The position numbers were made by a program, and so were the translations under genes. The notes beneath the pieces are model-generated. The model saw only the letters and a program-made list of their open reading frames with translations. It had not been told where the DNA came from and did no database searches. From NCBI GenBank assembly GCA_035707305.1, contig DASSUE010000187.1, positions 1 to 44,675 of the forward strand: a DNA stretch of 44,675 nucleotides, written 5' to 3'. Below, in pieces: positions 5,453 through 41,474 of the stretch (the stretch's first letter is position 1; each line of letters begins with the position of its first letter). The DNA comes from Gemmatimonadales bacterium (GTDB lineage Bacteria > Gemmatimonadota > Gemmatimonadetes > Gemmatimonadales > GWC2-71-9).

Positions 5453-5497
5453 AAGCTACCGGCGACGGTTCAAGCCGCTGATGAAGGCATTGTGAAG
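5453..5497 (-). promoter_or_regulatory. Candidate response-regulator box plus -10 for the cupredoxin-nosZ operon
   Basis: The minus strand reads CTTCAC-aatgc-CTTCAT-cagcgg-CTTGAA-n10-TAGCTT. This is the same phased-repeat architecture found at about nine other promoters in the window (see findings). An inverted GTGAAGG lies just upstream at 5501-5507. Confidence 0.5.
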
Positions 5498-5534
5498 CTT
5501 CCTTCACGGCTGGCCGGCTCTCGCCCGCGTCGGC

Positions 5535-5580
5535 TTGACAATTGGAATATTGTATATAATCATGAGCATATGATGAATAT
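5535..5580 (+). promoter_or_regulatory. AT-rich promoter/operator region upstream of the Rrf2 regulator gene
   Basis: A ~45-bp AT-rich island in a G+C-rich genome: TTGACA (5535-5540), TATAAT (5555-5560, only a 14-nt spacer), inverted repeat ATCAT-n6-ATGAT (5560-5575) and direct repeat GAATAT (5545, 5575). It ends 20 nt before the rrf2 ATG. Confidence 0.4.
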
Positions 5581-5600
5581 CGGGTGAGAGAGCGTTTCGC

Positions 5601-6046: not shown

Positions 6047-6511
6047 ATGGACTGGTTCGTTCGGGCCTTCATTAAGGCCAGCGTGGCCTGGCTCTCGGCG
6101 GGGGTCACCCTCGGCGTGGCCATGGCCGTGCACCCGCCGTGGGTGATCTATCGTCCGGCCCACATTCACCTCAACGTGCTGGGGTTCGTGGCGATGATGA
6201 TCTTCGGGGTGGGCTATCATGTGCTGCCGCGCATCGCGGGCCACCCCCTGGGTCACCCAAGACTTGCCGCCGCGCACTGGTGGCTGGCGAACATCGGCCT
6301 TGCCCTGTTCGTCGCCGGCCTCGTGGCCCGCGCCCACACGGTCGCGGTCGCGCCGGCGGTGCTGGGGGCGGGGGCGGCGCTGTCGGCGGCCGGCGCCTAT
6401 GCCTTCGCATGGAACATCTGGCGCACGCTCGCCGCCGCGGGCCGGCGCCAGGCTTCGACTGATCGGGGAACGCCGCCCCGCAGGCGCGCGCTGCCGATCG
6501 CGGCGCACTGA
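6047..6511 (+). CDS. 4-TM membrane protein with haem-copper-oxidase helix-X-like AHxH motif (paralog A)
   Basis: 154 aa with four hydrophobic helices. AHIHLNVLGFVAMMIFGVGYHVLPR resembles the COX1/NorB helix X segment (AHFHYVLSMGAVF...WFP). RBS GAAGGAG upstream. Lies between rrf2 and nrfH. Confidence 0.6.
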   Translation: MDWFVRAFIKASVAWLSAGVTLGVAMAVHPPWVIYRPAHIHLNVLGFVAMMIFGVGYHVLPRIAGHPLGHPRLAAAHWWLANIGLALFVAGLVARAHTVAVAPAVLGAGAALSAAGAYAFAWNIWRTLAAAGRRQASTDRGTPPRRRALPIAAH

Positions 6512-6515
6512 CGCG

Positions 6516-6950
6516 GTGGATCGGCTCGTTCAGCGTTACCTGAAGACGGCTATCGGATTTCTCGCCCTTGGCCTCGTGCTCGGCGCACTGATGATCATCC
6601 GACGCGAGCTCCAGGGAGTTTACCCACCGCCGCACTGGATCAGCGCGCATACCCACGCGCTGCTGGTCGGGTTCGTAATGATGCTGATCCAGGGAGTCGC
6701 GCTCTGGATGTTTCCGCGGCCGGACCAGGCTGACCTCCGCTACCGACCTGCGCTCGCGGAATTGGCCTACTGGCTGGTGGCACTATCCACGGTGCTGCGC
6801 CTGGCTGGCGAACTACTTCGCCCCACCGTGGACGCAGTTGCCCTACGGTGGCTCGTGGTCGGCGGGGGGGTGGGGCAAGTCCTCGGAATCCTCGTCTTCT
6901 TCGTAAACATGTGGCCCCGGATCCGCTCCGCGGGAGCCCGCACCCGCTGA
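6516..6950 (+). CDS. 4-TM membrane protein, paralog B of 6047-6511
   Basis: I place the start at GTG 6516, in frame with track ORF 6219-6950 and 5 nt after the paralog A stop. It begins VDRLVQRYLKTAIGFLALGL. AHTHALLVGFVMMLIQGVALWMFPR aligns with the paralog A motif. The part of the track ORF upstream of 6516 overlaps gene A and looks like non-coding Arg/Pro-rich sequence. Confidence 0.55.
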   Translation: MDRLVQRYLKTAIGFLALGLVLGALMIIRRELQGVYPPPHWISAHTHALLVGFVMMLIQGVALWMFPRPDQADLRYRPALAELAYWLVALSTVLRLAGELLRPTVDAVALRWLVVGGGVGQVLGILVFFVNMWPRIRSAGARTR

Positions 6951-10864: not shown

Positions 10865-10898
10865 ATCGTAGCGGGGCGCGAGTGAAGCGATCGTGAAG
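10865..10898 (-). promoter_or_regulatory. Candidate response-regulator box plus -10 for the yceI operon
   Basis: The minus strand reads CTTCAC-gatcg-CTTCAC-n11-TACGAT. The -10 candidate sits inside the perfect 12-bp palindrome GATACTAGTATC (10856-10867). Confidence 0.5.
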
Positions 10899-11974: not shown

Positions 11975-12405
11975 ACGCCGTGCGACTCAGTTCAAGAGGA
12001 AGTGGATATCTCCGACCGCATGCGGCCGAAACGGGCGGCTCGGCCCTGCTTGTGGATGTTAGTCAGCAGCAGCAGCCGAGATGGTCGGCGAGGCGCCGGA
12101 AGCTCTGGGGCCAACCACCCCGCGTGCTGCGCCACTCCTCTGCGAGGGCAGTTCGCGGCCGTCTGAGAATCCTTTGCACCGCAGCTCATGATTCCTTCAT
12201 GCGCCGAGAACAACGTTTTGTCGCCCGGCTTCTCAAAGTCCGCGAACGCCACGGGCCGTGGACCTGGTCGAGATACTCCGGCCTAAGGGACAGATGCTCG
12301 GGGAACGATCGACGGTCCGTTGAGTGCAGAGCGGGTCGAATTTCGGGCGCATGCCACGCTCGAGATCGCGCTTGTAAGCACGCGTCCCGACTTCCCGGAG
12401 GACCA

Positions 12406-13020
12406 ATGCGCAGTCCAGCAGACGCCATCAACAGCTATGTCACCGACATGCTTGCCATCGAGGAGCATATCGAGAAGGCCGTGGCGGGCCAGATCCAATC
12501 CTTGGCGGACCATCCGCAGGTCGGGGCGGAGCTAGAGACAATCCAACGCTGGATCCGGCTCCATATCGCGAACCTGAAGCAATTGACGGGAACGCGAGGC
12601 TTGGCCACAACGACCGGCGCAATCAAGCGGGCGGGTTCCAGCGTCCTCGGACGGGCCGCGGGAGCCATCGACCTTCTCCGTCACGAAGGACAGGCCAAGA
12701 ACCTTCGTGACGATTATACCGCTTTCAGCTTGGCGGCCATCGGCTACGTGATGCTGCACACCACTGCCCTAGCGTTGGGAGACAAGGAAGTAGCCAATCT
12801 CGCCTACCAGCACCTGGGGAATTACGCCCGGGGGCTGATCGCATTGCAGTACATCCTCCCGGCGGTGGTCGTGCGGTCGCTTCAGACGGAGGGGCTGCCA
12901 GCTCGTGAGGACGTCCTCACGGATGTGTTCCGGAACATGGAGGTGGTCTGGGGGCTCGGCGGGACCGTGCGGACCCCTACCCGTAGGGGAACCACGGTCC
13001 CAGACCGGCCGAGCCACTAG
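12406..13020 (+). CDS. Ferritin-like / DUF892 (YciE-YciF-like) stress protein, tentative
   Basis: The ATG at 12406 is preceded by GGAGG. The upstream part of the track ORF is Arg-rich and implausible as protein. MRSPADAINSYVTDMLAIEEHIEKAVAGQI... and later DDYTAFSLAAIGYVMLHTTALALGD suggest a helical-bundle ferritin-like fold. The assignment is from pattern memory only. Confidence 0.4.
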   Translation: MRSPADAINSYVTDMLAIEEHIEKAVAGQIQSLADHPQVGAELETIQRWIRLHIANLKQLTGTRGLATTTGAIKRAGSSVLGRAAGAIDLLRHEGQAKNLRDDYTAFSLAAIGYVMLHTTALALGDKEVANLAYQHLGNYARGLIALQYILPAVVVRSLQTEGLPAREDVLTDVFRNMEVVWGLGGTVRTPTRRGTTVPDRPSH

Positions 13021-13228
13021 ACCCGGCGACAGGCTCGATCTATCTCGCGCAACCTCTCTCGGTGCGTCGGACCGTGCCGGCGGTCCTGGGTGGTGTACGC
13101 CATCCGACCGCTCGGAGTCAGGAGTCCGGCCAGCACCGCCGCCCGAAGCAGGCGAGTCGGCGCAGCCTTGGGGATATCGTCCCTGGCTGCGAATTGGCCG
13201 TATCGCTCTCAAGCGACTTTCCGCCGCT

Positions 13229-13245
13229 CTTCACAACATCTTCAT
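13229..13245 (+). promoter_or_regulatory. Candidate response-regulator box upstream of P-family copy 1
   Basis: CTTCAC-aacat-CTTCAT with an exact 11-bp period, 44 nt upstream of the ATG at 13290. Confidence 0.5.
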
Positions 13246-13289
13246 GGGGGCAGGTCAACCATACGAGCGACCCGTAACAGGAGTTCCCA

Positions 13290-13766
13290 ATGGCTGCCGC
13301 CTCGATCGCTCCGCTGGTTGCCCGAGACACCCCAATGACGGCAGATGCGCTGGCGCCGCTTCACGAACAATGGCTCGCCGCCGTGCGGAAGGCCTTCGAT
13401 CCTGTGCTGCTCGGCTCGCGCGCGATTCGGGATCGCTGGACAGCCTTGCGGCACCTCGGTCAGGTCACCGAACGGCTGGAGCAGGAGCGGTGGATGATCG
13501 ATCGAACGCCGGGTCTCGCGCCGTCCTCTCGTGCGAGAATCGAGAATGGCTTCAACGCCCTCCAGCGGGTTCGGGAGCAGGTCGGCAAGGTTGGAGGCCG
13601 GGCGGCCTCTCACGGCTCGCTCGTCTACCTGCTCGCGCATTTCGTGGACATGCTGGCGGACTGGTATGCCACGATCGAGCACGCGGCAGCCCGGGTTCCG
13701 TTGAACGAGCTCCCGACCAAAGCTTTGGCGGCGTTGTCGCAGCTCGAGTCGGGGAACGGGAGGTAA
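13290..13766 (+). CDS. Uncharacterised P-family protein, copy 1 (~158 aa, predicted all-helical)
   Basis: RBS AGGAG. Aligns along its whole length with 14126-14614, 21510-22001 and 42554-43012. Shared motifs are L-x-P-L/M-H-x-x-W, LLG-x-x-x-I-x-DRW-x-A-x-R-Y/H-L, E-R, H-x-G-x-L and W-x4-E. Confidence 0.7.
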   Translation: MAAASIAPLVARDTPMTADALAPLHEQWLAAVRKAFDPVLLGSRAIRDRWTALRHLGQVTERLEQERWMIDRTPGLAPSSRARIENGFNALQRVREQVGKVGGRAASHGSLVYLLAHFVDMLADWYATIEHAAARVPLNELPTKALAALSQLESGNGR

Positions 13767-14044: not shown

Positions 14045-14100
14045 CTTCAAGGCCGCTTCCTGGCTGGTTCACGGTGTCTTCACGCCGGGCAGTGCATCGT
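14045..14100 (+). promoter_or_regulatory. Four phased repeats plus -10 upstream of P-family copy 2 (best example of the box)
   Basis: CTTCAA (14045), CTTCCT (14056), GTTCAC (14067) and CTTCAC (14078) have an exact 11-bp period. An 11-nt spacer then leads to CATCGT (14095-14100). Confidence 0.55.
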
Positions 14101-14125: not shown

Positions 14126-14614
14126 ATGCCCGCCACGCTGAACACCCGTTGCGCGCCCCGCTCCGCCGCGATGCTCGACGAGGTGCTCACACCGATGCAT
14201 CGAGACTGGGCCGCATGTGTGGCACGGGCGTGTGCCCCGGCGTTGCTGGGCACGTCCACGATCTGGGATCGCTGGAGCGCGGTGCGGTATCTGAATGATG
14301 CGTTTCAGGAGCACCTGGGGCAGGAACGCGAGCTGATCCGGCGGCTTCCCCGGATTGACTCGCAGACGCGTGAGCGGCTCGCGGCGGTGTTCGAGACTCT
14401 CGAGCGGCTCCGCGCCCGGATCGATTCAGCTGGCCGGCGGCATCATACCGGGGGTCTCGTCACCGTCCTGCTCAAGAACTTGCTGGAGCAGCTCGATGCC
14501 TGGTGCGCGGCGACCGAGCATGTCGCTGGATCCATTCCTCTGGCCCTACTGCCTGACCAGGCACTCGACCTCCTGATTGAGATCCAGGCACACGCGCCCC
14601 GCCATCGGGGGTGA
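14126..14614 (+). CDS. Uncharacterised P-family protein, copy 2
   Basis: I place the start at ATG 14126, preceded by AGGAG. The track ORF starts at GTG 14099. LTPMHRDW..LLGTSTIWDRWSAVRYL..RRHHTGGL..AWCAATEH..IPLALLP is closest to copy 3. Roughly half of positions look identical by eye. Confidence 0.7.
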   Translation: MPATLNTRCAPRSAAMLDEVLTPMHRDWAACVARACAPALLGTSTIWDRWSAVRYLNDAFQEHLGQERELIRRLPRIDSQTRERLAAVFETLERLRARIDSAGRRHHTGGLVTVLLKNLLEQLDAWCAATEHVAGSIPLALLPDQALDLLIEIQAHAPRHRG

Positions 14615-14690
14615 CCGTGGCCACGGGAGCCCCTACGGAGCAGGTATCGCCTCCGCAGGTGCAGGGCTGAAGGCTGGAAGGAGAACACAC

Positions 14691-15338
14691 ATGATCTTCG
14701 CCAATCGCTATGACGCGGGGCGCCGCCTGGCGGGGCTCCTTGAACGGTACCGGGCGGAGCGCCCCGTACTCCTCGCGCTGCCCCGAGGTGGCGTGCCGGT
14801 GGCATTTGAAGTGGCGCGGGCGCTCGGGGCGCCGCTGGACGTTTGCGTCGCCCGAAAGTTGGGTGTTCCCGGCGCCGAGGAAGTTGCGATGGGGGCGGTC
14901 GCCGGCGGAACTGCCGTGGTCGACCACGAGCTGATCGCTCGGCTCGGGATTCCGAATACGTACGTCCAGCGGGTGGTGGCCCGGGAAATCGCGGAGATGG
15001 CCCGCCAGGAAGGGACCTTCCGGCGTGGTCGCGCACCTATCGACGTCGCGGGGCGCACCGTTATCCTGGTCGACGACGGCCTGGCCACTGGAGCGACTGC
15101 GTACGCCGCGGTCAAGGCGCTCAGGACGCGCAACCCCCGTCGCATCGTATTTGCGTCGCCGGTTTGTGCCCCTGACGGCGCCGAAATGCTCCGTGGGGTC
15201 GCCGACGACGTGATCTGTGTCGACTGCCCGGCCGACTTCCGCGCGGTCGGACTCTGGTATGAGGATTTTTCGCCGGTGAGCGACGCCGAGGTGGTGGATT
15301 GCCTCGAAGCCGTAGCGCCGGGGAGGATTTCAGCATGA
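14691..15338 (+). CDS. Phosphoribosyltransferase-family protein (stress-island type)
   Basis: The ATG at 14691 is preceded by GGAAGGAG. It has LALPRGGVPVAFEVARALGAPLDV and the PRPP-binding loop VILVDDGLATGAT. This is the same type as the N-terminal half of mycobacterial PRTase-hydrolase fusions. Confidence 0.8.
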   Translation: MIFANRYDAGRRLAGLLERYRAERPVLLALPRGGVPVAFEVARALGAPLDVCVARKLGVPGAEEVAMGAVAGGTAVVDHELIARLGIPNTYVQRVVAREIAEMARQEGTFRRGRAPIDVAGRTVILVDDGLATGATAYAAVKALRTRNPRRIVFASPVCAPDGAEMLRGVADDVICVDCPADFRAVGLWYEDFSPVSDAEVVDCLEAVAPGRISA

Positions 15339-16051
15339 GCCCGGTGACAATGACACACGGTGCGCGAGCCGTGATGATCCCGGCCGATGGAGTACAACTG
15401 GCCGGCGAGCTGGCCTGGCCGCAGCATCCGGGCGGGATGGTGCTGTTCGCACACGGAAGCGGCAGCGGCCGACTCAGCCCGCGCAACCGCTTCGTGGCGG
15501 AGCGATTGCGGGATGCCGGCCTGGCGACGCTCCTGTTCGATCTGCTTACGGAGGGGGAAGCGGGCGACCGGCACAACGTCTTCGATATCCCACTGCTGGC
15601 GCGACGGCTGGTCGCGGCAACCACGTGGGCGGCGCAGCAGGCCGATCTCGCCGGGCTTCCCGTGGGGTATTTCGGCGCCAGCACCGGTGCCGCTGCGGCG
15701 CTCACGGCAGCGGCGTTGTCCCCTCTGGCAGCCGCCGCTATCGTCTCACGCGGCGGCCGGCCCGACCTCGCCGGCAATGCGTTGGACCGGGTAACCGCTC
15801 CGACGCTGTTGCTGGTGGGAGGCCGTGACCCGGTTGTGCTCGACCTCAACCGTGCAGCGCTCGCGCGGCTGCGGGGGCCGAGGGAACTGGTGATCGTACC
15901 CGGTGCCGGACATCTCTTCGAGGAGCGCGGTGCCATGGAAGCAGTCGCGGATGCGGCGGCCGGATGGTTCGTGCGCTACCTGGAACTGGAGCGGGTCTGG
16001 CGGGGCGCCCATTTGCGAAATGATCCGTCGGTGGCTGCCGGGCCGTGGTGA
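15335..16051 (+). CDS. Dienelactone-hydrolase-like alpha/beta hydrolase
   Basis: ATGA overlap with the PRTase stop, with GGGAGG upstream. Contains VLFAHGSGSGRLSPRNRFVAERL, GYFGASTGAAAAL (nucleophile elbow G-x-S-x-G) and VIVPGAGHLFEE. Confidence 0.75.
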   Translation: MSPVTMTHGARAVMIPADGVQLAGELAWPQHPGGMVLFAHGSGSGRLSPRNRFVAERLRDAGLATLLFDLLTEGEAGDRHNVFDIPLLARRLVAATTWAAQQADLAGLPVGYFGASTGAAAALTAAALSPLAAAAIVSRGGRPDLAGNALDRVTAPTLLLVGGRDPVVLDLNRAALARLRGPRELVIVPGAGHLFEERGAMEAVADAAAGWFVRYLELERVWRGAHLRNDPSVAAGPW

Positions 16052-16096: not shown

Positions 16097-16187
16097 GGCC
16101 GGCTACCGGCAGCCAGGGAATCACTTCCCTGTTCTTTTCCGTCGGCGACGCCGAAGGAGATCCTTCGGCGGATGCGCCTTCAGAGTC

Positions 16188-16297
16188 CCGGATTCGATTG
16201 CCAGTCGGTGTCACACGCACCGCTTGGTTCGCCGGTCAGCGCTGCGGGACGGACGCGTCGCGAGCCATCATCCCGCACTGCACGCCGCCGCGCCACC
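16188..16297 (+). repeat. Copy 1 of a ~110-nt intergenic repeat (partner at 26444-26553)
   Basis: Hand alignment gives roughly 80 percent identity overall and higher in the 3' 60 nt. Shared blocks are CCGGATT, CGGTGT, CGCACC, AGCGCTGCGGG, GCGTCGCGAGCCATC, GCACGCC and CCGCGCCACC. The indels are not multiples of 3. Confidence 0.6.
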
Positions 16298-16376
16298 GCG
16301 GCGTGTGGTGAGCCATGCGACCGTTCTCACCTGACTCCAAGATACTGAATCGTCGTGAAATGACCTTGAATCGAGG

Positions 16377-18035
16377 ATGAAGATCGATTCTCGATCGTAC
16401 AGCAGCGTTATCAGCCTGCTGGTGTCGTTGGCTGCGCTCGGCATGCCGGCAAGTGCCACGGCCCAGAGCGGTGACGCCGTGGTGATCCGGGGCCTGATCG
16501 CCGCCGCGCGGGTCCCGGGCGCCCGGTGGCCCGACTTTCCACGCTACCTGGATGACGTCGCCCGGCTGTACGCATCACACAACGGTGTTCCGGTCTGGTT
16601 TCGTGAAGGCCGACTCTCATCCGCGGGGCAGGCAGCTATCGGCAGTCTCCTCGGCGCCGCCAGTCACGGGCTCGCGCCGGAGGACTACGACGCTGCGCCG
16701 CTCGACAGCCTCGCGCAGGGCAGCGGTCCCAGCCTGCCTCCTGCCGAGGTAGGCCGGCTGGACCTGATGCTCAGCGTCGATCTCATCCGTTACCTCGATG
16801 ACCTGCGCCGCGGCCGGAGCAAGGGAGTGGTCCGGAGCGGCACCGTGGCCCGAATGGACCCGCCCGACTGGGCCGACGCCATCGACCAGGGGTTGCGCGG
16901 AGACAGCATCGGCAAGCTGGCCGATCAGGCGGCTCCGGCCCTCACCCAGTATCGCAACCTGCGGGCATTGCTCGCGCGGTATCGTCGGTTGGCCAGAGAC
17001 ACGGTAGCGTTCGCGGCGTTGCCGGCGGTGCCACCAGCCATGCCGGGGCAGCCGTACGCCGCGCTCACGGAGCTGAAGCGGCGCCTCGTACTGGTGGGCG
17101 ATCTGGCCGGCGCGGGCAGCGGCGACACGCTGTACACCGGCGAAGCGGTTGAAGCCGTTCGCCAGTTTCAGCGACGGCACGGCCTCGAGCCGGACGGCGT
17201 CATCGGTCCCGCCACGTCGGCCGCGTTGAACGTGCCGCCGGCCCGTCGGGTACGGCAGATCGAGCTCGCGCTCGAGCGGATCCGGTGGCTCCCGCCGCTG
17301 GGACGGGAGCCATTTCTCGTGGTCAACATTCCCGCGTTCTATCTCTTCGGCTTCGACTCCGCCGGAGGCACCGGCGCTCCGTCGTTCACCAGCCGCGTGG
17401 TCGTCGGGCGGGCTCTCGACACCGAGACACCGGTGCTCTACGAGTCGCTTCGGTACGTAGAGTTCCGACCGTATTGGAACGTTCCCCGGAGCATCGTCCT
17501 CAACGAGATTCTCCCACGGCTGCGCCGCGACCCGGAATACCTTGGCAGGTATCATATGGAAGTCGTTGGCCCAGCCGACAGGCTGGTGGACGATACAGCC
17601 AGCTCCGACCTGCTTCGCCGGCTCACCGGAGGAGAGATCCGAATCCGCCAGCGACCGGGCCTATCCAACGCGCTGGGCCTGGTCAAGTTCGTTTTTCCCA
17701 ATGCGGCCAGTGTCTACCTGCACGATACGCCCGACACCGAGCTGTTCAGCCGCTCCCGCCGCGACTTCAGCCATGGCTGCATCCGGGTCGAGGAGGCCGA
17801 AGCGCTCGCCGTCTGGGTGCTGCGGGGCCAGCCCGCGTGGGACAGCGCACAGGTGCACGCCGCGGTCAAAGGACCCGGAACGAGGCGAGCGTTTCTCACG
17901 CGGCCAATGCCGGTGGCCATCCTCTACACGACCGCCGTCGCTACGCCGTCGGGAGAGGCGTGGTTCTTCGAGGACATCTACGACCACGATCGAGCGCTGG
18001 AAGAAGTTCTGCGGGCTGGCCCATCACCACCGTGA
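16377..18035 (+). CDS. L,D-transpeptidase (YkuD domain) with PG-binding domain, YcbB/LdtD-like
   Basis: 552 aa with a signal peptide. PG_binding_1-like EAVRQFQRRHGLEPDGVIGPATSAAL. Catalytic YLHDTPDTELFSRSRRDFSHGCIRVEE (SHGC). Confidence 0.85.
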   Translation: MKIDSRSYSSVISLLVSLAALGMPASATAQSGDAVVIRGLIAAARVPGARWPDFPRYLDDVARLYASHNGVPVWFREGRLSSAGQAAIGSLLGAASHGLAPEDYDAAPLDSLAQGSGPSLPPAEVGRLDLMLSVDLIRYLDDLRRGRSKGVVRSGTVARMDPPDWADAIDQGLRGDSIGKLADQAAPALTQYRNLRALLARYRRLARDTVAFAALPAVPPAMPGQPYAALTELKRRLVLVGDLAGAGSGDTLYTGEAVEAVRQFQRRHGLEPDGVIGPATSAALNVPPARRVRQIELALERIRWLPPLGREPFLVVNIPAFYLFGFDSAGGTGAPSFTSRVVVGRALDTETPVLYESLRYVEFRPYWNVPRSIVLNEILPRLRRDPEYLGRYHMEVVGPADRLVDDTASSDLLRRLTGGEIRIRQRPGLSNALGLVKFVFPNAASVYLHDTPDTELFSRSRRDFSHGCIRVEEAEALAVWVLRGQPAWDSAQVHAAVKGPGTRRAFLTRPMPVAILYTTAVATPSGEAWFFEDIYDHDRALEEVLRAGPSPP

Positions 18036-19537: not shown

Positions 19538-19577
19538 AGGTCTCTCCAGTGATTGTGGCGTGCCCATATTACAGCAT

Positions 19578-19621
19578 ACGCTATGAGACCGGCCTGAAAC
19601 CGGCATGAACATTCCGGGAAC
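19578..19621 (-). promoter_or_regulatory. Candidate response-regulator box plus -10 for the BON gene (degenerate repeats)
   Basis: The minus strand reads GTTCCC-ggaat-GTTCAT-gccgg-TTTCAG-n10-TAGCGT. The period is exactly 11 bp. Confidence 0.4.
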
Positions 19622-21173: not shown

Positions 21174-21435
21174 CTGCAAACCATGGCTTGCATGCCGCGT
21201 TTCATCTCCGCTTCACGGGGGCGACATACGGACATGTCCGAGGCGAACGCTCGTCACTCTATTACGATCCGAATCTTGCTCATCGGTGCCCCGTTGAGAA
21301 TACGAGCGGTAAGGACGCCGTCGAGAAGCCGTCGGCGGCGAGATCGCGGCGAGGCCGCGCGAAGGCGGCTGTGAGCTGGCGAACGCCCTGTCACCGAACG
21401 ACCAGCGATTCCGTTGGCTGAGGTCTGCAAGGCAG

Positions 21436-21480
21436 TTTCCTCCCTGCTTCACCTGTTCTTCATGATCCCTGCTCCAATCT
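21436..21480 (+). promoter_or_regulatory. Candidate response-regulator box plus -10 for the P3 / phosphorylase / Prs operon
   Basis: TTTCCT (21436), CTTCAC (21447) and CTTCAT (21458), followed by an 11-nt spacer and CAATCT (21475-21480). The ATG is at 21510. Confidence 0.5.
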
Positions 21481-21509: not shown

Positions 21510-22001
21510 ATGTCGATGACGCTGACCGTCCGGTCCGAGTCGCGGCGGAGCGCCACTGTTGGCGACGTCCTCACTCCGCTGCACGAGCGTTGGCTCGCTG
21601 CCGTTGAGGCGGCAGTGCAACCCGCGCTGCTTGGTACCAGCACGATCTGGGACCGCTGGGCCGCCACGCGGTATCTCGAGGAGCGGTTCGCCACCAGACT
21701 GGAGCTGGAACTCTCCCTGGTGCGTCTGACTGACGTCAGCACTCGGGACCGCGAGCGGATCGAGGCCGATTACACCCGGATCGAGCAGCTCCGCGGCGCG
21801 ATCGAAGCAGTGGCCAGCCGGCATCACACGGGTGGGCTGATCATGTCCCTGCTGCAGGAGTTGCTGAGCTCGCTCACGGGCTGGGTGATCGATGTGGAGC
21901 AGGCGACCGCCCGGATTCCGCTTGCAGCGCTGCCCGGCGAGGCGGTCCGGCTGCTCACAGAACTTGAAGCCGACCCGTTGGAAACGACGGGGCAGCAGTG
22001 A
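21510..22001 (+). CDS. Uncharacterised P-family protein, copy 3
   Basis: The ATG at 21510 is preceded by AGGAGG. LTPLHERW..LLGTSTIWDRWAATRYL..SRHHTGGL..GWVIDVEQ..IPLAALP. Its stop overlaps the GTG of the next gene (GTGA at 21998-22001). Confidence 0.7.
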   Translation: MSMTLTVRSESRRSATVGDVLTPLHERWLAAVEAAVQPALLGTSTIWDRWAATRYLEERFATRLELELSLVRLTDVSTRDRERIEADYTRIEQLRGAIEAVASRHHTGGLIMSLLQELLSSLTGWVIDVEQATARIPLAALPGEAVRLLTELEADPLETTGQQ

Positions 22002-26386: not shown

Positions 26387-26443
26387 GCCGCCCTCTCGCA
26401 CTTAGGCAAGTGCCCGGCGCAGGAGCGGGTGGCTTCGAGCGCT

Positions 26444-26553
26444 CCGGATTGTATTCCCGCGCGGTGTGATCGCACCACGAAGTTCACCGGCCGGAGCGCT
26501 GCGGGTCGGATGCGTCGCGAGCCATCCATCGCACGGCACGCCACCGCGCCACC
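26444..26553 (+). repeat. Copy 2 of the ~110-nt intergenic repeat (partner at 16188-16297)
   Basis: See copy 1. It fills almost the whole gap between the degraded USP gene and the archease gene, in the same absolute orientation as copy 1 although the flanking genes are on the opposite strand. Confidence 0.6.
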
Positions 26554-26555
26554 TC

Positions 26556-28663: not shown

Positions 28664-28754
28664 GGCTTCCGGGTCCTCGGCAGATGGTTGGCACCTGGCC
28701 GCCAACATGCGCCGACCAGGATGAGCCCGCGATGAAACCGCGGTCAAGATGCCT

Positions 28755-31951: not shown

Positions 31952-31985
31952 AGCCTATCCCACCCTCCATGAAGCCAGCATGATG
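31952..31985 (-). promoter_or_regulatory. Candidate response-regulator box plus -10 for the EreA-like operon
   Basis: The minus strand reads CATCAT-gctgg-CTTCAT-n11-TAGGCT. It ends 43 nt upstream of the ATG at 31908. Confidence 0.4.
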
Positions 31986-32021
31986 ACAGCTATAACGGGC
32001 GCTGCCTGATCGTGAAGGTTT

Positions 32022-32066
32022 CCTCACCGGAGCTTCATCGCCCGGTCAACGCTGGCGCGATAGCGT
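32022..32066 (+). promoter_or_regulatory. Candidate response-regulator box plus -10 for the groEL-USP operon
   Basis: CCTCAC (32022), CTTCAT (32033) and GGTCAA (32044), followed by an 11-nt spacer and TAGCGT (32061-32066). The ATG is at 32098. Confidence 0.45.
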
Positions 32067-37648: not shown

Positions 37649-39621
37649 GCGGCCCGGAGCGCGTTCAGGATAACGGCGACATCGACCGCCTCCTGGAGCA
37701 GCGCCCCCGCCACCGGTGACACGTACCCAGCGGCGGCGGCCACCATGGCAGCGGCGCTGAGACCGAGCCCGATCCAGATGCTCTGCCGAGCGATCCTCAT
37801 CGTCCGCCGGCTGATCTCCACGGCGTCGGCCAGACGCCCCGGGTCGTCTCCGAGAATGACCGCATCGGCGGCCTCCGCTGTGATGCCGCCTCCGCCACTG
37901 GCGAGCGCGACACCGACCGTCGCGACTCCCAGGGCCGGGGCGTCGTTGGTGCCGTCTCCGAGCATCACGACGCGTTCGCCTGCCGCAACCAGTGCACGCA
38001 CGGTATCGACTTTTTGCTCCGGCAGAAGATCGCCGCGGGCCTCATCCACCTGGACGGCGGCCGCCACGGATGCCACGTTGTCAGCCGCATCACCCGACAG
38101 AACGATCATCCGCCGCACCCCAAGCCGCCGTAAGCGCTCGATCAATGGGGACGCCCCAGACCGCACCGCATCGGCGTACTCGATGATGCCGGCCAGGTGC
38201 CCGCCGATAGTCACGTAGGCGCGGAGTCCACTGCCCGGCACGGGTGCCGGGGCTCCGCTCCCCGCGGTCGACGCACGGGCGGACACGAACGGCCAGGCGC
38301 CGACGGCCACCTCCTTGTCCTCCACCAGGCCGCTGACGCCCTGGCCGGGGGCTTCATTCACTGCCGCTGCGTTGGGTATCGCGATGCCACGGCGCACCGT
38401 CTCCTCCACCAGGGTACGGGCCAGGAGGTGCCCGGATCCCTGTTCGACGGCTCCCGCGAGCCGGAGCACCTCATGCTCGGTGAACGGCATCAGCGCCAGC
38501 ACCCGCGACACGGCGGGCCGGCCAAGCGTAAGGGTGCCGGTCTTGTCGAACACCGCCGTCGTGACCGAGCCCAGCTGCTCGATAGCCGTGCCGTGGCGGA
38601 AGATGACTCGGCGCCGCGCCGCCCGGTTGATGCCTCCCACCACTGCGACCGGTGCCGCGAGGATCAAGGGGCAGGGGGTGGCCACGACGAGCACGGCCAG
38701 CACTCGGACCGGGTTGTGGGACAGAAGCCAGGCCCCCGCGCACACGGCAAGCGTGAAGGGAGTGAACCAGATGGCGTAGCGGTCCGCCAAACGCTGGATC
38801 GGCGCCTTGCTGGCCTGAGCGCTTCGGACCAGCTCGACGATACGGGCGTACTGGCTCTCTCCGGCGGGGGCGAGGACGCGGAGCGTGAGCGGCCCTTCCA
38901 GGTTCCGGCTCCCGCTCAGCAGCTTGTCACCGGTACGCGCCACTCGGGGGATCGGTTCCCCGGTGAGCTGTGCCGCATCGACATGGGAGCGGCCATCGAG
39001 CACCACGCCATCGCAGGGGACGAGCTCGCCTGGGCGCACGAGGATCTCGTCGCCCGGCACCACGGCTTCCGCGAGCACATCGACAAGGCTATCGCCGTCC
39101 CGACGGTGGGTCACGCGGGGAGCATTCGCCTCGAGCTCTCTCACGGCGTCCGAGGCCCGACCGCGGGCGAAGGTTTCCAGCGCTTCGCCGCCCGTCTGCA
39201 TGAGTACGACAATGAGGCCGGGCAGCGGCTGACCGAGTAGCACGGCAGCCAGGATGGCGAGCGTGGCGACGAGATCGGCAGCGAAACGGCGGCCAAGAAC
39301 GCCGTGGGCGGTGCGCACCACGACCGGAAGTCCCGTGAGTACGAGACCAGCCATCCAGATGTGATGACCGAGCGGGGTGGAGCGGCCGCTCCCGATGACC
39401 AGACCGAGGGTGATGAAAGCAAGCACCGCTGCAGGCAGGACTGCGGAGCGGCGCGTCAGCCCTCTGGCGCGGAGACCGCGTTCGGAGAACGGCGCAGGCT
39501 GAACCCCACGCCGCGGATCGTCTGAATAAGCTGCTCCCCCGCGGCCTCCGCCAGTTTCCGGCGCAGGTTCCCCACGTGCACGTCTACCACGTTGCTCTCC
39601 GGATCGAAGTGCATGTCCCAT
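37642..39621 (-). CDS. P1B-type heavy-metal P-type ATPase with TPCP transmembrane motif (P1B-5-like), no N-terminal CxxC domain
   Basis: Motifs [24 protein letters not shown] and TM motif [13 protein letters not shown]. No CxxC metal-binding domain is present. The start is uncertain: the ATG at 39621 overlaps the upstream regulator gene by 166 nt, and the true start may be internal, before the first TM helix ([15 protein letters not shown]). Confidence 0.8.
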   Translation of the reverse strand: [659 protein letters not shown]

Positions 39622-40154
39622 ACCTTCTCCAGAAGCGTGGTGCGCCGGACGACCTCTTCGGGGTGCAGCAGGAAGTACTCGAGAAGCTGGAATTCCTTGG
39701 GCGTCAGATCGAAGGGCCGATCCCGCACCGTTACAACGTGCCGGAGGCGGTCGAGGGCGATCGGGCCGAAGCTCAGAGTCTCGAGCCGCTCGGCGCCCCC
39801 GCGGCGATGGAGCGCGCGGATGCGAGCCAGAAGCTCGTCAAACCGGAACGGCTTCGCGAGGTAGTCGTCCGCTCCCGCATCCAATCCGCGAACGACATCC
39901 TCGGTGGAATCGCGGGAGGTAAGCATCAGGATCGGCGTGTGTCGCCCCTCGCGCCGGAGCTCGGTAGCAACCTGGAAGCCGTTCTTTTTGGGAAGCACCA
40001 CGTCGAGCAGGATGACATCGTAGTCGTACACGTGCGCCAGCATCGTCGCCTCGTCGCCATCCGGAGCGATGTCGACGACGTACCCCTCTTCCTTCAGCCC
40101 CTGCTCGATGAACCCGGCGACCTTCCGGTCGTCCTCCACGACGAGAATCTTCAT
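39456..40154 (-). CDS. OmpR/PhoB-family response regulator (receiver + winged-helix)
   Basis: Starts at ATG 40154 with MKILVVEDDRKVAGFIEQGL...ILLDVVLPKKNG...ILMLTSRD...KPFRFDELLARI. The C-terminal LTPKEFQLLEYFLLHP...VDVHVGNLRRKL...IQTIRGVGFSL is the trans_reg_C domain. Confidence 0.9.
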   Translation of the reverse strand: MKILVVEDDRKVAGFIEQGLKEEGYVVDIAPDGDEATMLAHVYDYDVILLDVVLPKKNGFQVATELRREGRHTPILMLTSRDSTEDVVRGLDAGADDYLAKPFRFDELLARIRALHRRGGAERLETLSFGPIALDRLRHVVTVRDRPFDLTPKEFQLLEYFLLHPEEVVRRTTLLEKVWDMHFDPESNVVDVHVGNLRRKLAEAAGEQLIQTIRGVGFSLRRSPNAVSAPEG

Positions 40155-40211
40155 GGCTCGAACCTTACCCTTGGCGCATGAACCCGACCGCAACCGTCCG
40201 TGAAGGTTCCT

Positions 40212-41423
40212 TCACCATTCCTCGGCGGCGGGGAGCTCGAGGATGAAGCAGCCTCCGGAGCTCTGGGGGACGGCCCGAAGCTCGCCCCCGAGCAACCGGG
40301 CGAGCCGGCGCGACAGCGGGAGCCCCAGCCCGAAGCTCCGGCTCTCATCGCCCGGATTGGTCACGTAGATGTCGAAGATCCGCTCGATGTCGTCGGGGTC
40401 GATGCCCGGCCCATCGTTTTCTACCGTAAAAGTGATTCGGCCTGGGGGCGAGGCGAGGGTTACCCTAACGGTTCCTCGCTCGGAAGAGTGTCTGATCCCG
40501 TTCCCTACAAGATTGACGAGGATCTGTTCCAGCCTGCTCGCGTCGGTATGGCAAGGCGGCAGGTGCGCCTCCGCCCGCGTCTCCAAGGAGACGTTGCGGG
40601 CCTCGGCGGCAGGCAGCAGACGTCCGACTGCGCGCCGGGTTATCGTCAACGCGTCCACCGGGCGGATTACCGGACGGAGACGGTCTTCATCCACCCTGCT
40701 CAGGTCGAGCAGGTCGTTGATCAGCTTGACCGCCTGGTCGGCCGAGTCGACCACCTCATAAGCCGCTCGCGGCACTGTCGCGGGGTCCTTCTTCCGCACC
40801 AGCATCTCGGCCCAGCCATAGGTGGCCGCCAGCGCGTTTCGTAGCTCGTGGTTCACCATGGCGAAGAACCGCTCGCGGGCCCGATGAAGGTTTTGCACCT
40901 CCTCCAGCAACCTGGCGCTCTCCTCGTGCAATCGTGCATTTTCCACCGCCGCCCCGGTCTGAGCCGCGAGCAGCACGACGATCCGCTCGTCCTCTTCAGT
41001 GAACTCCCCGGCGCCCAGCTTTTCGGTGAGATACAGATTGCCGAACACCCCTCGCCGTCCTGTGATTGGCGCGCCGAGGAAGGAACGCATCGGCGGATGA
41101 TGCGGCGGAAAGCCGTAGGAATCGGGATGCCGGCTGAGATCCGGCAGACGGATGACGCGGGGCTCGCGGATCACAAGCCCGAGGATGCCGTGCCCGCGCG
41201 GCGGCGGGCCGATTGCCGCCCGCTCGGCATCGGATATGCCGTGGGTGTGGAATCGCTCGATGGTCCGGCCATCAGAGGCAAGGACGCCGATGGCCGCGTA
41301 TCGAGCGCCGATGACGCTCGCTGCGATCTGAACAGTACGCTCGAGCACACCTTCAAGCGACAGCTCCGAGACCAGGAGCGTGCCTGCCTCGACTAGGCGC
41401 TCGAGCCGCCCGTGTTCTTGCAT
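40212..41423 (-). CDS. GAF-domain sensor histidine kinase; GAF closely resembles the DosS/DosT haem-binding GAF-A
   Basis: 403 aa. ARYAAIGVL...GHGILGLVI..P..IRLPDLSRHPDSYGFPPHHPPMRSFLGAPI...GVFGNLYLTEK aligns from memory with DosS ARYGAMEVH...GLGVIGLLI...[41 protein letters not shown]. A HisKA H-box (NHELRNAL) and HATPase_c follow. Confidence 0.8.
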   Translation of the reverse strand: MQEHGRLERLVEAGTLLVSELSLEGVLERTVQIAASVIGARYAAIGVLASDGRTIERFHTHGISDAERAAIGPPPRGHGILGLVIREPRVIRLPDLSRHPDSYGFPPHHPPMRSFLGAPITGRRGVFGNLYLTEKLGAGEFTEEDERIVVLLAAQTGAAVENARLHEESARLLEEVQNLHRARERFFAMVNHELRNALAATYGWAEMLVRKKDPATVPRAAYEVVDSADQAVKLINDLLDLSRVDEDRLRPVIRPVDALTITRRAVGRLLPAAEARNVSLETRAEAHLPPCHTDASRLEQILVNLVGNGIRHSSERGTVRVTLASPPGRITFTVENDGPGIDPDDIERIFDIYVTNPGDESRSFGLGLPLSRRLARLLGGELRAVPQSSGGCFILELPAAEEW

Positions 41424-41440: not shown

Positions 41441-41474
41441 CTTCATCCTGACTTCATCCCCGTCCGGCCATCGT
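41441..41474 (+). promoter_or_regulatory. Candidate response-regulator box plus -10 for the USP / DUF2892 / P4 operon
   Basis: CTTCAT-cctga-CTTCAT-n11-CATCGT. The hexamer and spacing are identical to the P2 promoter. The ATG is at 41494. It shares a 70-bp divergent region with the GAF kinase gene. Confidence 0.55.

What the first reader, a model, noticed from the sequence alone, without database searches (positions are those of the whole stretch)
14045..14100. Pho-box-like regulon signature: 11-bp-phased CTTCA(C/T) direct repeats plus a TAnnnT-like hexamer at about ten promoters
Intergenic regions carry 2-4 direct repeats of (C/G/T)TTCA(C/T) with an exact 11-bp period. The repeats always point toward the downstream gene and are followed after 10-11 nt by a -10-like hexamer. 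The sites are listed here. nos operon: minus strand 5497-5453, CTTCAC/CTTCAT/CTTGAA then TAGCTT. yceI: 10898-10865, CTTCAC/CTTCAC then TACGAT. Lipoprotein: 11974-11941, CTTCAG/TCTTAC then CAATAT. P1: 13229-13245, CTTCAC/CTTCAT. P2: 14045/14056/14067/14078 then CATCGT. BON: 19621-19578, GTTCCC/GTTCAT/TTTCAG then TAGCGT. P3: 21436-21480, TTTCCT/CTTCAC/CTTCAT then CAATCT. EreA-like: 31985-31952, CATCAT/CTTCAT then TAGGCT. groEL: 32022-32066, CCTCAC/CTTCAT/GGTCAA then TAGCGT. USP: 41441-41474, CTTCAT/CTTCAT then CATCGT. Five sites contain two exact CTTCA pentamers at exactly 11 bp, which is very unlikely by chance in a few kb of G+C-rich spacer. The geometry matches the E. coli Pho box, where direct repeats with 11-bp periodicity replace the -35 element about 10 bp upstream of the -10. 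That geometry is the hallmark of OmpR/PhoB-family activators. One such regulator (39456-40154) is encoded in the island next to a DosS-like kinase.
Basis: partly seen in the sequence, partly recalled or inferred. Interest (0 to 1): 0.8.

Follow-up and report, generated by a model that had tools for sequence, protein, structure and literature searches.

The report
Conserved stress-regulon promoter motif in Gemmatimonadales
About a dozen promoters in this 45-kb contig from a soil-type Gemmatimonadales bacterium share the same phased CTTCA(C/T) repeats in place of a -35 box. The signature is conserved in at least 70 related species and most likely marks genes (stress, dormancy-like and nitrous-oxide reductase genes) switched on by the neighbouring haem-sensor kinase and its OmpR-type regulator.

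Summary
Exact CTTCA pairs 11 bp apart occur 5 times in the window, against 0.02 in shuffles.

The window is a Gemmatimonadales MAG contig. In 80 related species (1.1 Mb) the same architecture recurs: 2-4 units of (C/G)TTCA(C/T) at an 11-bp period, then 11 nt, then a TAnnnT-type -10, with no -35. It is mostly non-coding and points at gene starts.

New here:
- The OmpR-family regulator gene (39456-40154) carries the motif in front of a leaderless start in 71 species.
- An inverted half-site, TGAAG-N4-CTTCA, is part of some operators.
- The adjacent kinase has a DosT/DosS-type haem GAF domain with the haem-contact motifs conserved.
- Target genes mirror the mycobacterial DosR dormancy regulon and add the nos (N2O reductase) operon.

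Best explanation: a PhoB-like, -35-replacing activation mechanism by this regulator under a haem (O2/NO/CO) sensor. It is not a Pho regulon and not a DosR orthologue. Binding, transcription starts and the signal are untested. I found no description in the searchable literature. I rate it a new variant of a known kind.

The parts
14045..14083 (+). P2 operator (the nominal finding). Four direct units at an 11-bp period: CTTCAA 14045, CTTCCT 14056, GTTCAC 14067, CTTCAC 14078.
   Evidence: Sequence read. Matrix score 28.0. The same four-unit array (CATCAA/CTTCCT/CTTCAC/CTTCAT-N11-CACTGT) stands before the 61%-identical orthologue in L083.
14095..14100 (+). P2 -10-like hexamer CATCGT, 11 nt after the last unit. 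A CAGGAG Shine-Dalgarno and ATG 14126 follow.
   Evidence: General -10 position.
14126..16051 (+). P2 operon: unknown helical-bundle protein (14126-14614), PRTase-domain protein (14577-15338), alpha/beta hydrolase (15299-16051). A terminator-like hairpin lies at 16114-16131.
   Evidence: Pfam. Terminator scan.
13218..13262 (+). P1 promoter: TTTCCG 13218, CTTCAC 13229, CTTCAT 13240, N11, AACCAT 13257-13262. It drives the paralogue 13290-13766.
   Evidence: (score 28.2). A conserved counterpart is seen in L083.
21436..21480 (+). P3 promoter: TTTCCT, CTTCAC 21447, CTTCAT 21458, N11, CAATCT 21475-21480. It drives 21510-22001 (paralogue), 21998-23533 (archaeal-type thymidine/AMP phosphorylase) and 23530-24492 (PRPP-synthetase-like).
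   Evidence: (score 35.4).
41441..41474 (+). USP promoter: CTTCAT 41441, CTTCAT 41452, N11, CATCGT 41469-41474, then GGAGG and ATG 41494 (tandem-USP gene 41494-42330). It diverges from the kinase gene.
   Evidence: (score 28.5). The orthologous position carries the motif in 52 loci.
40162..40214 (-). Promoter of the regulator gene: TGAAG 40214-40210 (includes the kinase stop codon), CTTCAC 40205-40200, GTTGCG 40194-40189, GTTCAT 40183-40178, N10, TAAGGT 40167-40162. Then 7 nt and ATG 40154, which implies a leaderless mRNA.
   Evidence: The architecture is conserved in 71 species, and 58/71 have [TC]AnnnT 6-8 nt before the ATG.
39456..40154 (-). OmpR/PhoB-family response regulator (REC + winged-helix Trans_reg_C). 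It is the proposed binder of the repeats.
   Evidence: Pfam; PDB; NCBIfam (below every named family's cut-off).
40212..41423 (-). Soluble sensor kinase: one DosT/DosS-type haem GAF domain, then HisKA and HATPase_c. Its own leaderless start: TAGAAT 41435-41430, 6 nt, ATG 41423.
31952..31985 (-). EreA-operon promoter: CATCAT 31985, CTTCAT 31974, N11, TAGGCT 31957-31952; ATG 31908. The operon continues on the minus strand: EreA-like, REC-only protein, HAMP kinase, baeRF, USP, archease, RtcB (down to 24531).
   Evidence: (score 26.2).
32013..32066 (+). Chaperonin promoter: TGAAG 32013, CCTCAC 32022, CTTCAT 32033, GGTCAA 32044, N11, TAGCGT 32061-32066; ATG 32098. Genes: Cpn60 32098-33720 and tandem USP 33717-34616.
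   Evidence: (score 17.2).
10865..10898 (-). yceI promoter: CTTCAC 10898, CTTCAC 10887, N11, TACGAT 10870-10865; ATG 10838.
   Evidence: (score 24.1).
5453..5506 (-). nos-operon promoter: TGAAG 5506-5502, CTTCAC 5497, CTTCAT 5486, CTTGAA 5474, N10, TAGCTT 5458-5453; GTG 5412. Genes: cupredoxin, NosZ 2960-4966, NosD, ABC ATPase.
   Evidence: (score 19.6). The motif also stands before nosZ or the cupredoxin gene in L002, L004, L009 and L016.
19566..19621 (-). BON-protein promoter: GTTCCC 19621, GTTCAT 19610, TTTCAG 19599. Then either N10 + TAGCGT (19583-19578), or a fourth unit TCTCAT followed by N11 + TAATAT (19571-19566). ATG 19537.
   Evidence: (scores 16.2 and 9.7). BON homologues carry the motif in L019 and L023.
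16339..16382 (-). Candidate extra site: CTTCAT 16382, ATTCAA 16371, TTTCAC 16360, N10, TATCTT 16344-16339. Only a 26-codon ORF (ATG 16316) lies downstream.
   Evidence: (score 17.9). No Rfam match.
28704..28748 (-). Weaker candidate internal promoter before the baeRF gene: CTTGAC 28748, TTTCAT 28737, GCTCAT 28726, N11, CATGTT 28709-28704; ATG 28663.
   Evidence: (score 13.5). A baeRF homologue has a strong site (29.0) in L065.

Best explanation
These are activator-dependent promoters of one regulon.

Each promoter has two to four 11-bp-phased units, consensus (C/G)TTCA(C/T). Some also have an upstream inverted half-site, TGAAG-N4-CTTCA. The units occupy roughly -51 to -24 and end 11 nt before an nAnnnT -10 hexamer. 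There is no -35 element.

The phosphorylated OmpR-family regulator encoded at 39456-40154 is proposed to bind the units as head-to-tail oligomers on one face of the helix. It would then recruit RNA polymerase, as PhoB does at Pho boxes.

Its partner kinase (40212-41423) senses O2, NO, CO or redox state through a DosT/DosS-type haem GAF domain. The regulator amplifies itself from its own leaderless, motif-bearing promoter.

The output is a dormancy or hypoxia-type programme: USPs, chaperonin, BON and YceI proteins, EreA-like, PRTase, baeRF, archease and RtcB proteins. It also includes the clade-II-type nos operon.

Shown: the motif, its geometry, its conservation, its placement before genes, the protein families and the haem-motif conservation. 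Inferred: who binds, activation rather than repression, and the signal.
For: Motif and geometry:
- Enrichment and exact 11-bp phase in the window and in 80 other species: 65 CTTCA pairs at 11 bp and 24 at 22 bp, against 0-8 at other distances.
- Fixed 11-nt gap to a conserved -10, and no information at the -35 position.
- No sigma-70 -35/-10 consensus in the intergenic regions of the 13-16.4 kb stretch scanned.
- A matrix trained on other genomes finds 10 window sites at >=17, whereas shuffles never exceed 16.3.
- Sites are non-coding and gene-directed.
- 167 of 191 sites have an ORF start within 60 nt of the -10.
- Arrays of three units occur in 68 of 185 sites, against a per-unit background of 1.4%.

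Link to this regulator:
- It is the only winged-helix response regulator found in the window.
- Its gene carries the motif in 71 species, with the -10 placed 6-8 nt before the ATG in 58/71. That spacing independently fits a transcription start at the start codon.
- The USP gene divergent from the kinase carries the motif in 52 loci.

Sensor:
- The GAF domain matches DosT (3e-42) and DevS (2e-36). GFPPHHPPMR and FGNLYLTEK are conserved.

Regulon content:
- It parallels the DevR regulon (Rv2628-Rv2631 including RtcB, Rv0571c PRTase, ctpF, otsB, USPs, hspX; PMC3177182 Table 1, PMC5309233).
- The baeRF protein hits the Rv2629-family model.
Against: - There are no binding, transcription-start or expression data.
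- All comparison loci were fetched through the kinase gene. The motif-kinase association is therefore partly built in, and I could not test genomes that lack the system.
- The regulator gene could instead be a target of another winged-helix protein encoded elsewhere.
- The inverted half-site TGAAG-N4-CTTCA (69 occurrences against 0-2 at most other gaps, 6 at gap 14) is not expected for a purely head-to-tail binder. The regulator's best-scoring named family is the heavy-metal CopR/CusR group, whose boxes are palindromic (from memory), so the binding mode may be more complex.
- Units overlapping the -35 region could in principle repress.
- A few sites use a 10-nt gap (regulator gene, BON, nos).
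- The haem-ligand assignment (His in HHPPM, Tyr in NLYLT) rests on my memory of DevS/DosT structures plus the alignment. It is not a measurement.
Confidence: 0.72

Rival explanations
1. The motif is a real regulon signature, but a different winged-helix (OmpR-family or SARP-like) regulator encoded elsewhere in the genome binds it. The local kinase-regulator operon would be just one of its targets.
For: No binding data exist. All loci were chosen through the kinase, so exclusivity is untested. The regulator belongs to no named family with a known site.
Against: The regulator gene and the gene divergent from the kinase are the two most consistently motif-bearing genes across species (71 and 52 loci). 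That pattern is typical of autoregulated two-component systems. No other DNA-binding response regulator was found in the window: the second one (about 30165-30530) is receiver-only.
Confidence: 0.12
2. The same regulator binds, but as a repressor. Units overlapping the -35 region would block RNA polymerase until the signal removes the protein.
For: The units cover about -40 to -24. In the window, the USP-directed units also lie 5 nt from the kinase gene's own -10 on the other strand, an arrangement that could repress the kinase.
Against: No -35 consensus exists for polymerase to use unaided. The rigid 11-nt gap to the -10 and the one-face phasing are what is seen at -35-replacing activator sites (Pho boxes; PMC4415409). 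Repressor sites rarely keep so strict a register with the -10.
Confidence: 0.1
3. The repeats are the recognition element of an alternative sigma factor (for example ECF type) and not a transcription-factor site.
For: The element sits at a fixed distance from the -10, and the motif is shared by stress genes.
Against: Two to four tandem units one helical turn apart, plus an inverted half-site, cannot be read by one sigma region 4. The -10 is of the housekeeping TAnnnT type, not CGTC-like. No sigma-factor domain was found among the ORFs scanned.
Confidence: 0.03
4. Chance, compositional bias, or a dispersed repetitive element.
For: None found.
Against: 5 observed against 0.02 expected in the window. 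Only the units, the -10 and the Shine-Dalgarno are conserved in orthologous promoters of species whose proteins are 40-70% identical, while the spacers drift.
Confidence: 0.01

Closest known systems
PhoB/PhoP Pho boxes (E. coli CTGTCAT; Streptomyces coelicolor 11-nt direct repeat units with core GTTCACC)
   Same: Both have 11-nt direct repeat units with a conserved 5' part and a variable 3' part, in tandem arrays of variable number. They replace the -35 about 10-11 nt upstream of the -10 and are bound by an OmpR/PhoB-family winged-helix regulator (PMC4415409). The unit here, (C/G)TTCA(C/T), is close to the Streptomyces core GTTCACC.
   Different: The regulator is below the PhoB family cut-off. 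The kinase is a soluble haem-GAF protein, not PhoR. No phosphate-acquisition genes are among the targets. The E. coli pattern is not enriched. An inverted half-site is part of some operators.
Mycobacterium tuberculosis DevS/DosT-DevR (DosR) dormancy regulon
   Same: The sensor has a haem GAF domain about 50% identical to DosT/DevS GAF-A. The target set overlaps strikingly: many USPs, an RtcB plus baeRF (Rv2629-like) cluster, PRTase and hydrolase proteins, a P-type ATPase next to the regulator and a trehalose enzyme; small heat-shock and CBS proteins are targets in related genomes. The EreA-like and archease parallels rest on my memory. Sites are tandem, helically phased and reach the -35 region. 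The regulator is autoregulated together with a USP gene (PMC3177182; PMC5309233).
   Different: The regulator is OmpR-type, not NarL/LuxR-type. There is one GAF domain plus HisKA, instead of two GAF domains plus HisKA_3 (DevS architecture from memory). The motif is a direct repeat, not the 20-bp palindromic Dev box, which has 0 matches in the window. The nos operon is a target. The host phylum is different.
PmrA/BasR boxes (YTTAAK-N5-YTTAAK) and other enterobacterial OmpR-family direct repeats (from memory)
   Same: Hexamer-N5-hexamer direct repeats. CTTAAT differs from CTTCAT by one base. BasR is among the best solved relatives (1e-42).
   Different: Different signal (Fe3+/Al3+/pH), different kinase type, different targets. 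No orthology is shown (PmrA family score 192 < 330).
SARP activators of Streptomyces (from memory)
   Same: Heptamer direct repeats at 11 or 22 bp, with the last one about 8 bp from the -10. The DNA-binding domain is OmpR-like.
   Different: SARPs have no receiver domain and carry a BTAD domain. No such protein was seen in the window. The gap here is 11 nt.

Membership tests
OmpR/PhoB-type -35-replacing (class II) activator promoter | Tandem direct repeats one helical turn (about 11 bp) apart | tested here: met
   Distance spectrum: 5 at 11 bp against 0-1 elsewhere in the window. 65 at 11 bp and 24 at 22 bp in 80 other genomes.
OmpR/PhoB-type -35-replacing (class II) activator promoter | Proximal repeat about 10-11 nt upstream of a -10 hexamer, with no -35 consensus | tested here: met
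   TAnnnT at an offset of 11 nt in 27/70 sites and almost never at other offsets. The logo shows no information where a -35 would lie. No sigma-70 consensus promoters in the intergenic regions of the 13-16.4 kb stretch scanned.
OmpR/PhoB-type -35-replacing (class II) activator promoter | A cognate regulator with receiver plus winged-helix (Trans_reg_C) domains | tested here: met
   39456-40154: PF00072 + PF00486. PDB relatives PrrA, DrrD, PhoP, BasR, MtrA. Its gene carries the motif in 71 species.
OmpR/PhoB-type -35-replacing (class II) activator promoter | Demonstrated binding of the phosphorylated regulator and activation of transcription | not testable with these tools
   Needs EMSA or footprinting, transcription-start mapping and genetics.
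Pho regulon proper (PhoR-PhoB) | Regulator is a PhoB orthologue | tested here: not met
   NCBIfam PhoB models score 202.8 (cut-off 296.2) and 152.4 (cut-off 471).
Pho regulon proper (PhoR-PhoB) | PhoR-type kinase and phosphate-scavenging targets; CTGTCAT boxes | tested here: not met
   The kinase is GAF-HisKA-HATPase. Targets are stress and nos genes. The Pho-box pattern gives 1 match against 1.84 expected.
DevS/DosT-DevR (DosR) two-component dormancy system | Sensor with a haem-binding GAF-A domain | tested here: met
   3e-42 to DosT GAF-A and 2e-36 to DevS GAF-A. HHPPM and NLYLT motifs are conserved. Haem binding itself was not measured.
DevS/DosT-DevR (DosR) two-component dormancy system | NarL/LuxR-type regulator and HisKA_3 kinase core | tested here: not met
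   The regulator has Trans_reg_C, and the kinase has HisKA PF00512.
DevS/DosT-DevR (DosR) two-component dormancy system | Palindromic 20-bp Dev boxes | tested here: not met
   0 matches with up to 3 mismatches.
DevS/DosT-DevR (DosR) two-component dormancy system | Characteristic target genes (USPs, small HSP, CBS, Rv2629/RtcB cluster, PRTase, ctpF-like ATPase, trehalose enzyme) | tested here: met
   Window and related loci. Mtb list: PMC3177182 and PMC5309233. Protein-by-protein orthology to Mtb genes was not tested, except for baeRF against the Rv2629-family model.

The most novel reading that the evidence does not exclude
Gemmatimonadales, among the most abundant soil bacteria, may run a DosR-like dormancy or low-oxygen programme through a rewired circuit. 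A DosT/DosS-type haem sensor is coupled to an OmpR-type regulator with its own CTTCA(C/T) repeat code, instead of to DosR. The same switch would directly turn on the clade-II-type N2O reductase operon. That would make it a haem-based O2/NO gate on an environmentally important N2O sink.
Probability: 0.5. Interest if true: 0.75.

Novelty: new variant of a known kind. Interest (0 to 1): 0.62.

Why it matters
- It gives a concrete, testable regulatory code (motif, geometry, candidate regulator, candidate signal) for a phylum in which, as far as I could find, essentially no transcriptional regulon has been defined.
- It suggests that the 'dormancy regulon' gene set (USPs, RtcB/archease/baeRF, PRTase, EreA-like proteins) is an ancient module that different phyla have placed under the same kind of haem sensor but through non-homologous DNA-binding outputs.
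- It proposes how N2O reductase expression is tied to oxygen or NO sensing in non-denitrifying N2O reducers. That question bears on soil greenhouse-gas budgets.
- The motif can be used at once to predict regulon members in any Gemmatimonadales genome or MAG.

Tried and rejected
- Gene calling by GC3 alone was too noisy. I replaced it with Pfam/NCBIfam scans of candidate ORFs.
- An exact-protein look-up of the kinase returned only a 1.8-kb contig.
- The 'lipoprotein' site (-11974) scores 8.1, within the shuffle range, so I did not accept it.
- Weak pairs at +10944, +21200/21211 and -37579 lack a -10 at the right place or score below 13, so I did not count them.
- The E. coli Pho-box and Mtb Dev-box patterns are absent or at chance level.
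- Rfam finds nothing in the window, including the region downstream of the -16382 site.
- The function of the P1/P2/P3 family stayed unresolved. It has no Pfam or NCBIfam family. Only 6 close relatives turned up by word search and 156 clusters by exhaustive profile search. A confident AlphaFold model (pLDDT 85.7) is a plain helical bundle with no PDB match better than E = 0.35. A hemerythrin-like idea based on invariant His/Glu residues is therefore unsupported.
- Literature searches for Gemmatimonadota with DosR, hypoxia, haem or response regulators returned nothing relevant. One transcriptome paper reports a USP gene induced at 10% O2 in Gemmatimonas phototrophica but names no regulator.
- A kinase homologue search showed that the family is very common in metagenomes and is sometimes auto-labelled 'NarL family DevS'. 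It gave no taxonomy beyond Gemmatimonadales.
Full report

All ten quoted sites are present as written. Exact CTTCA pentamers recur on the same strand at 11 bp five times (+13229, +21447, +41441, -10898, -5497). Three hundred dinucleotide-preserving shuffles give a mean of 0.02 and never more than 1, and no other distance between 5 and 34 bp gives more than 1. With the looser core TTCA there are 12 pairs at 11 bp.

**2. Where does the window come from, and is the motif conserved?**

The kinase at 40212-41423 retrieved 80 loci from 80 species-level genomes. All are Gemmatimonadales or Gemmatimonadaceae MAGs, at 50-74% protein identity. The window itself is a 44,675-bp contig of an NCBI 'MAG TPA Gemmatimonadales bacterium'.

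In these 1.1 Mb, CTTCA pairs occur 65 times at 11 bp and 24 times at 22 bp, against 0-8 at every other distance.

A logo of 70 sites shows this layout:
- a third, upstream unit cTTC (T 50/70, T 63/70, C 51/70);
- the two selected units with C/T at position 6;
- then 11 uninformative positions;
- then c-T-A-n-n-n-T (C 47/70, A 50/70, T 53/70).

Nothing is conserved where a -35 hexamer would lie. A strict TAnnnT is found 11 nt after the proximal unit in 27 of 70 sites, at 12 nt once, and at no other offset from 6 to 15 nt (one more at 16). Arrays of three consecutive units (at least 4/5 match) occur in 68 of 185 strong sites. The per-unit background probability is 1.4%.

**3. Independent test on the window.**

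A weight matrix was built only from the 65 sites of the other genomes.

| Site | Score |
|---|---|
| P3 | 35.4 |
| USP | 28.5 |
| P1 | 28.2 |
| P2 (nominal) | 28.0 |
| EreA | 26.2 |
| yceI | 24.1 |
| nos | 19.6 |
| groEL | 17.2 |
| BON | 16.2 |
| lipoprotein | 8.1 |

Shuffled windows give a mean maximum of 10.8 and at most 16.3. So nine of the ten sites stand, BON only marginally (16.2, just under the largest shuffle value), and the lipoprotein site does not.

The nominal P2 site has four units (14045, 14056, 14067, 14078), then 11 nt, CATCGT (14095-14100), a Shine-Dalgarno and ATG 14126. A metagenomic orthologue with 61% protein identity (L083) has the same four-unit array, CATCAA/CTTCCT/CTTCAC/CTTCAT-N11-CACTGT, with different spacers. 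Its P1-like neighbour mirrors the window's P1 promoter.

**4. Placement.**

There are 208 hits at score >=15 in 1.15 Mb, present in 76 of 81 sequences. Of these, 191 have a plausible ORF start within 250 nt, and 167 of those lie within 60 nt of the -10. Against a crude gene map, sites at >=17 point at a gene start 120 times and at a gene end 28 times, and lie in coding sequence 33 times. Random positions give 11%, 11% and 76%. The 13-16.4 kb region has no sigma-70 -35/-10 consensus in its intergenic parts.

**5. What the sites control.**

Pfam and NCBIfam scans give these motif-headed units:
- **nos:** cupredoxin-NosZ-NosD-ABC.
- **yceI.**
- **P1:** a single gene.
- **P2:** P2, then a PRTase and an alpha/beta hydrolase.
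- **BON:** a protein with three BON domains.
- **P3:** P3, then an archaeal-type thymidine/AMP phosphorylase and a PRPP-synthetase-like protein.
- **EreA operon:** EreA-like, REC-only, HAMP kinase, baeRF, USP, archease, RtcB.
- **Chaperonin:** Cpn60, then a tandem USP.
- **USP:** a tandem USP divergent from the kinase.

Across the other genomes the downstream genes cluster into these groups: tandem USP (64 sites in 52 loci), the regulator gene (32 loci at this threshold), NosZ or cupredoxin, a multicopper-oxidase-like protein, CBS proteins, Hsp20, BON, the P1/P2/P3 family, a PQQ dehydrogenase, a NiFe-hydrogenase small subunit, haem-copper oxidase subunit I, baeRF and thymidine-phosphorylase-like proteins.

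**6. The regulator and its own promoter (new).**

39456-40154 encodes a receiver plus winged-helix protein. Its best solved relatives are Mtb PrrA (3e-48), DrrD, Mtb PhoP, BasR, MtrA and RegX3. It is below the cut-off of every named NCBIfam family: heavy-metal CopR/CusR subfamily 231.9 < 279.2, RppA 218.8 < 250, PhoB 202.8 < 296.2.

The 57-nt spacer between the kinase stop codon and this gene reads as follows on the minus strand:

TGAAG-gaac-CTTCAC-ggacg-GTTGCG-gtcgg-GTTCAT-N10-TAAGGT-tcgagcc-ATG

Anchoring 71 orthologous genes on their ATG gives conserved blocks at:
- -60..-56 (TGAAG);
- -51..-47 (CTTCA);
- -40..-38 (TT);
- -29..-25 (TTCA);
- -13..-8 (TAGaTT).

Of the 71 genes, 58 have [TC]AnnnT 6-8 nt before the ATG. 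That leaves no room for a leader or a Shine-Dalgarno, so the mRNA must be leaderless. It also shows independently that the hexamer behaves as a -10. The kinase gene is likewise preceded by TAGAAT plus 6 nt in the window, and by TAnnnT 5-7 nt before the ATG elsewhere.

**7. An inverted half-site (new).**

TGAAG-N4-CTTCA occurs 69 times in the 1.15 Mb, against 0-2 at most other gaps (6 at gap 14). It heads the regulator-gene promoter in nearly all species. It also heads the nos (5506-5502) and chaperonin (32013-32017) promoters of the window. In some loci it is the centre of two divergent arrays.

There appear to be two promoter layouts:
- weak-strong-strong-N11-(-10): USP, P1-P3, yceI, EreA;
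- palindrome-strong-(variable)-(variable)-N10/11-(-10): the regulator gene, nos, the chaperonin gene.

I cannot say whether the palindrome is a nucleation site, a second binding mode, or a site for the unphosphorylated protein.

**8. The sensor.**

The kinase has no membrane segment. It consists of one GAF domain, then HisKA and HATPase_c. The GAF domain matches the haem-binding GAF-A of DosT (3e-42) and DevS (2e-36) over its full length. GFPPHHPPMRSFLG and FGNLYLTEK are conserved. From memory, these segments carry the proximal His and the distal Tyr of DevS/DosT. The transmitter (HisKA rather than HisKA_3) and the partner (OmpR-type rather than NarL-type) differ. No Dev box exists in the window.

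**9. Comparison with known systems.**

In architecture this is a Pho-box-type promoter. Pho boxes are tandem 11-nt direct repeat units with a conserved core (E. coli CTGTCAT, Streptomyces GTTCACC) that replace the -35 (PMC4415409). The unit here resembles the Streptomyces core. It is not a Pho regulon, as the membership table shows.

In physiology it parallels the mycobacterial DevR regulon. That regulon's promoters also carry tandem, helically phased boxes reaching the -35 region. Its members include USPs, hspX, the Rv2628-Rv2629-Rv2630-Rv2631 (RtcB) operon, Rv0571c (PRTase), ctpF and otsB (PMC3177182 Table 1; PMC5309233). The window's baeRF protein hits NCBI's 'Rv2629 family ribosome hibernation factor' model (2e-14, below cut-off). 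A P-type ATPase follows the regulator gene. From memory, Rv2030c combines EreA-like and PRTase domains and Rv2630 is archease-like; I did not test these two.

**10. Mechanism proposed, and its weak points.**

*Shown:* the motif, its phase, its distance to the -10, its conservation, its gene-directed placement, the protein families and the autoregulatory placement.

*Inferred:*
- The local regulator binds the sites.
- Binding activates transcription.
- The signal is O2, NO, CO or redox state acting through haem.

*Main weaknesses:*
- All comparison loci were reached through the kinase, so exclusivity of the association is untested.
- There are no experimental data.
- The palindrome hints at a more complex binding mode.

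**11. Novelty.**

Full-text searches found nothing on Gemmatimonadota with DosR/DevS, hypoxia or haem regulators. One transcriptome study reports a USP gene induced with cbb3 oxidase at 10% O2 in G. phototrophica but names no regulator. Automatic annotation sometimes labels these kinases 'NarL family DevS', which is wrong for the partner family. The mechanism type is classical. The specific code, the sensor-output rewiring and the inclusion of nos are, as far as I could determine, undescribed. I therefore rate it a new variant of a known kind, with interest 0.62.

Noticed in passing
window 41421-41435 (minus strand): The kinase gene looks leaderless: TAGAAT, 6 nt, then ATG 41423. In the window, the USP-directed repeats lie only 5 nt from this -10 on the other strand, so regulator binding might also affect kinase transcription. 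Other genomes have a longer spacer and a conserved GGGTTCC about 18 nt upstream of the kinase -10.
   Followed up: partly
window 16236-16382 (minus strand): A triple phased repeat plus TATCTT (matrix score 17.9) points into a region with only a 26-codon ORF (ATG 16316) and hairpins. It may be a small protein or an sRNA of the regulon. The first unit is the reverse complement of the YkuD gene's ATGAAG start. No Rfam match.
   Followed up: partly
window about 5540-5590; also L002 8339, L007 8587, L010 8201, L011 6347: An AT-rich element (ATTCATcatatGCTCATgattatatacaatattcc; elsewhere ATTAATcatatATTCATgataatatc) is conserved between nos and the divergent Rrf2-family gene (5601-6020). It is probably the Rrf2/NsrR-type operator, a second input at the nos promoter.
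   Followed up: no
window 13290-13766, 14126-14614, 21510-22001: Three paralogues (35-44% identity) of an unannotated 160-residue family each open a motif-driven transcription unit. There is no Pfam or NCBIfam hit. The family has 156 clusters in 1.84 billion representatives. A confident AlphaFold model is a helical bundle with no significant PDB match. Invariant residues are H25, W28, D48-R49-W50, E67 and E131.
   Followed up: yes
window 24531-31908 (minus strand) and 21998-24492 (plus strand): One long operon joins an EreA-like protein, a receiver-only protein, a HAMP kinase, a baeRF (Rv2629-like) protein, a USP, archease and RtcB. A neighbouring operon has an archaeal-type thymidine/AMP phosphorylase (654 bits, above cut-off) and a PRPP-synthetase-like protein. 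Together they suggest RNA-repair, ribosome-hibernation and nucleotide-salvage functions under one switch.
   Followed up: partly
window 6047-6950 (plus strand): Two overlapping ORFs (6047-6511 and 6219-6950) both match only the first ~145 positions of haem-copper oxidase subunit I. They could be small COX1-like membrane proteins in tandem, or a frameshifted gene. They lie between the Rrf2 gene and napC/nrfA-like genes.
   Followed up: no
window 12184-12217 and 21200-21216 (plus strand): A site scoring 17.9 lies inside the long ORF 11980-13020, whose DUF892 part starts at ATG 12406, so the true gene may be shorter. A TTTCAT/CTTCAC pair abuts the TreT-like gene's start (21179) but points away from it.
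   Followed up: no
all loci; window 5502-5506, 32013-32017, 40210-40214: The inverted pair TGAAG-N4-CTTCA occurs 69 times in 1.15 Mb, against 0-2 at most other gaps (6 at gap 14). It is unexpected for a purely head-to-tail OmpR-type site, and its meaning is unexplained.
   Followed up: partly
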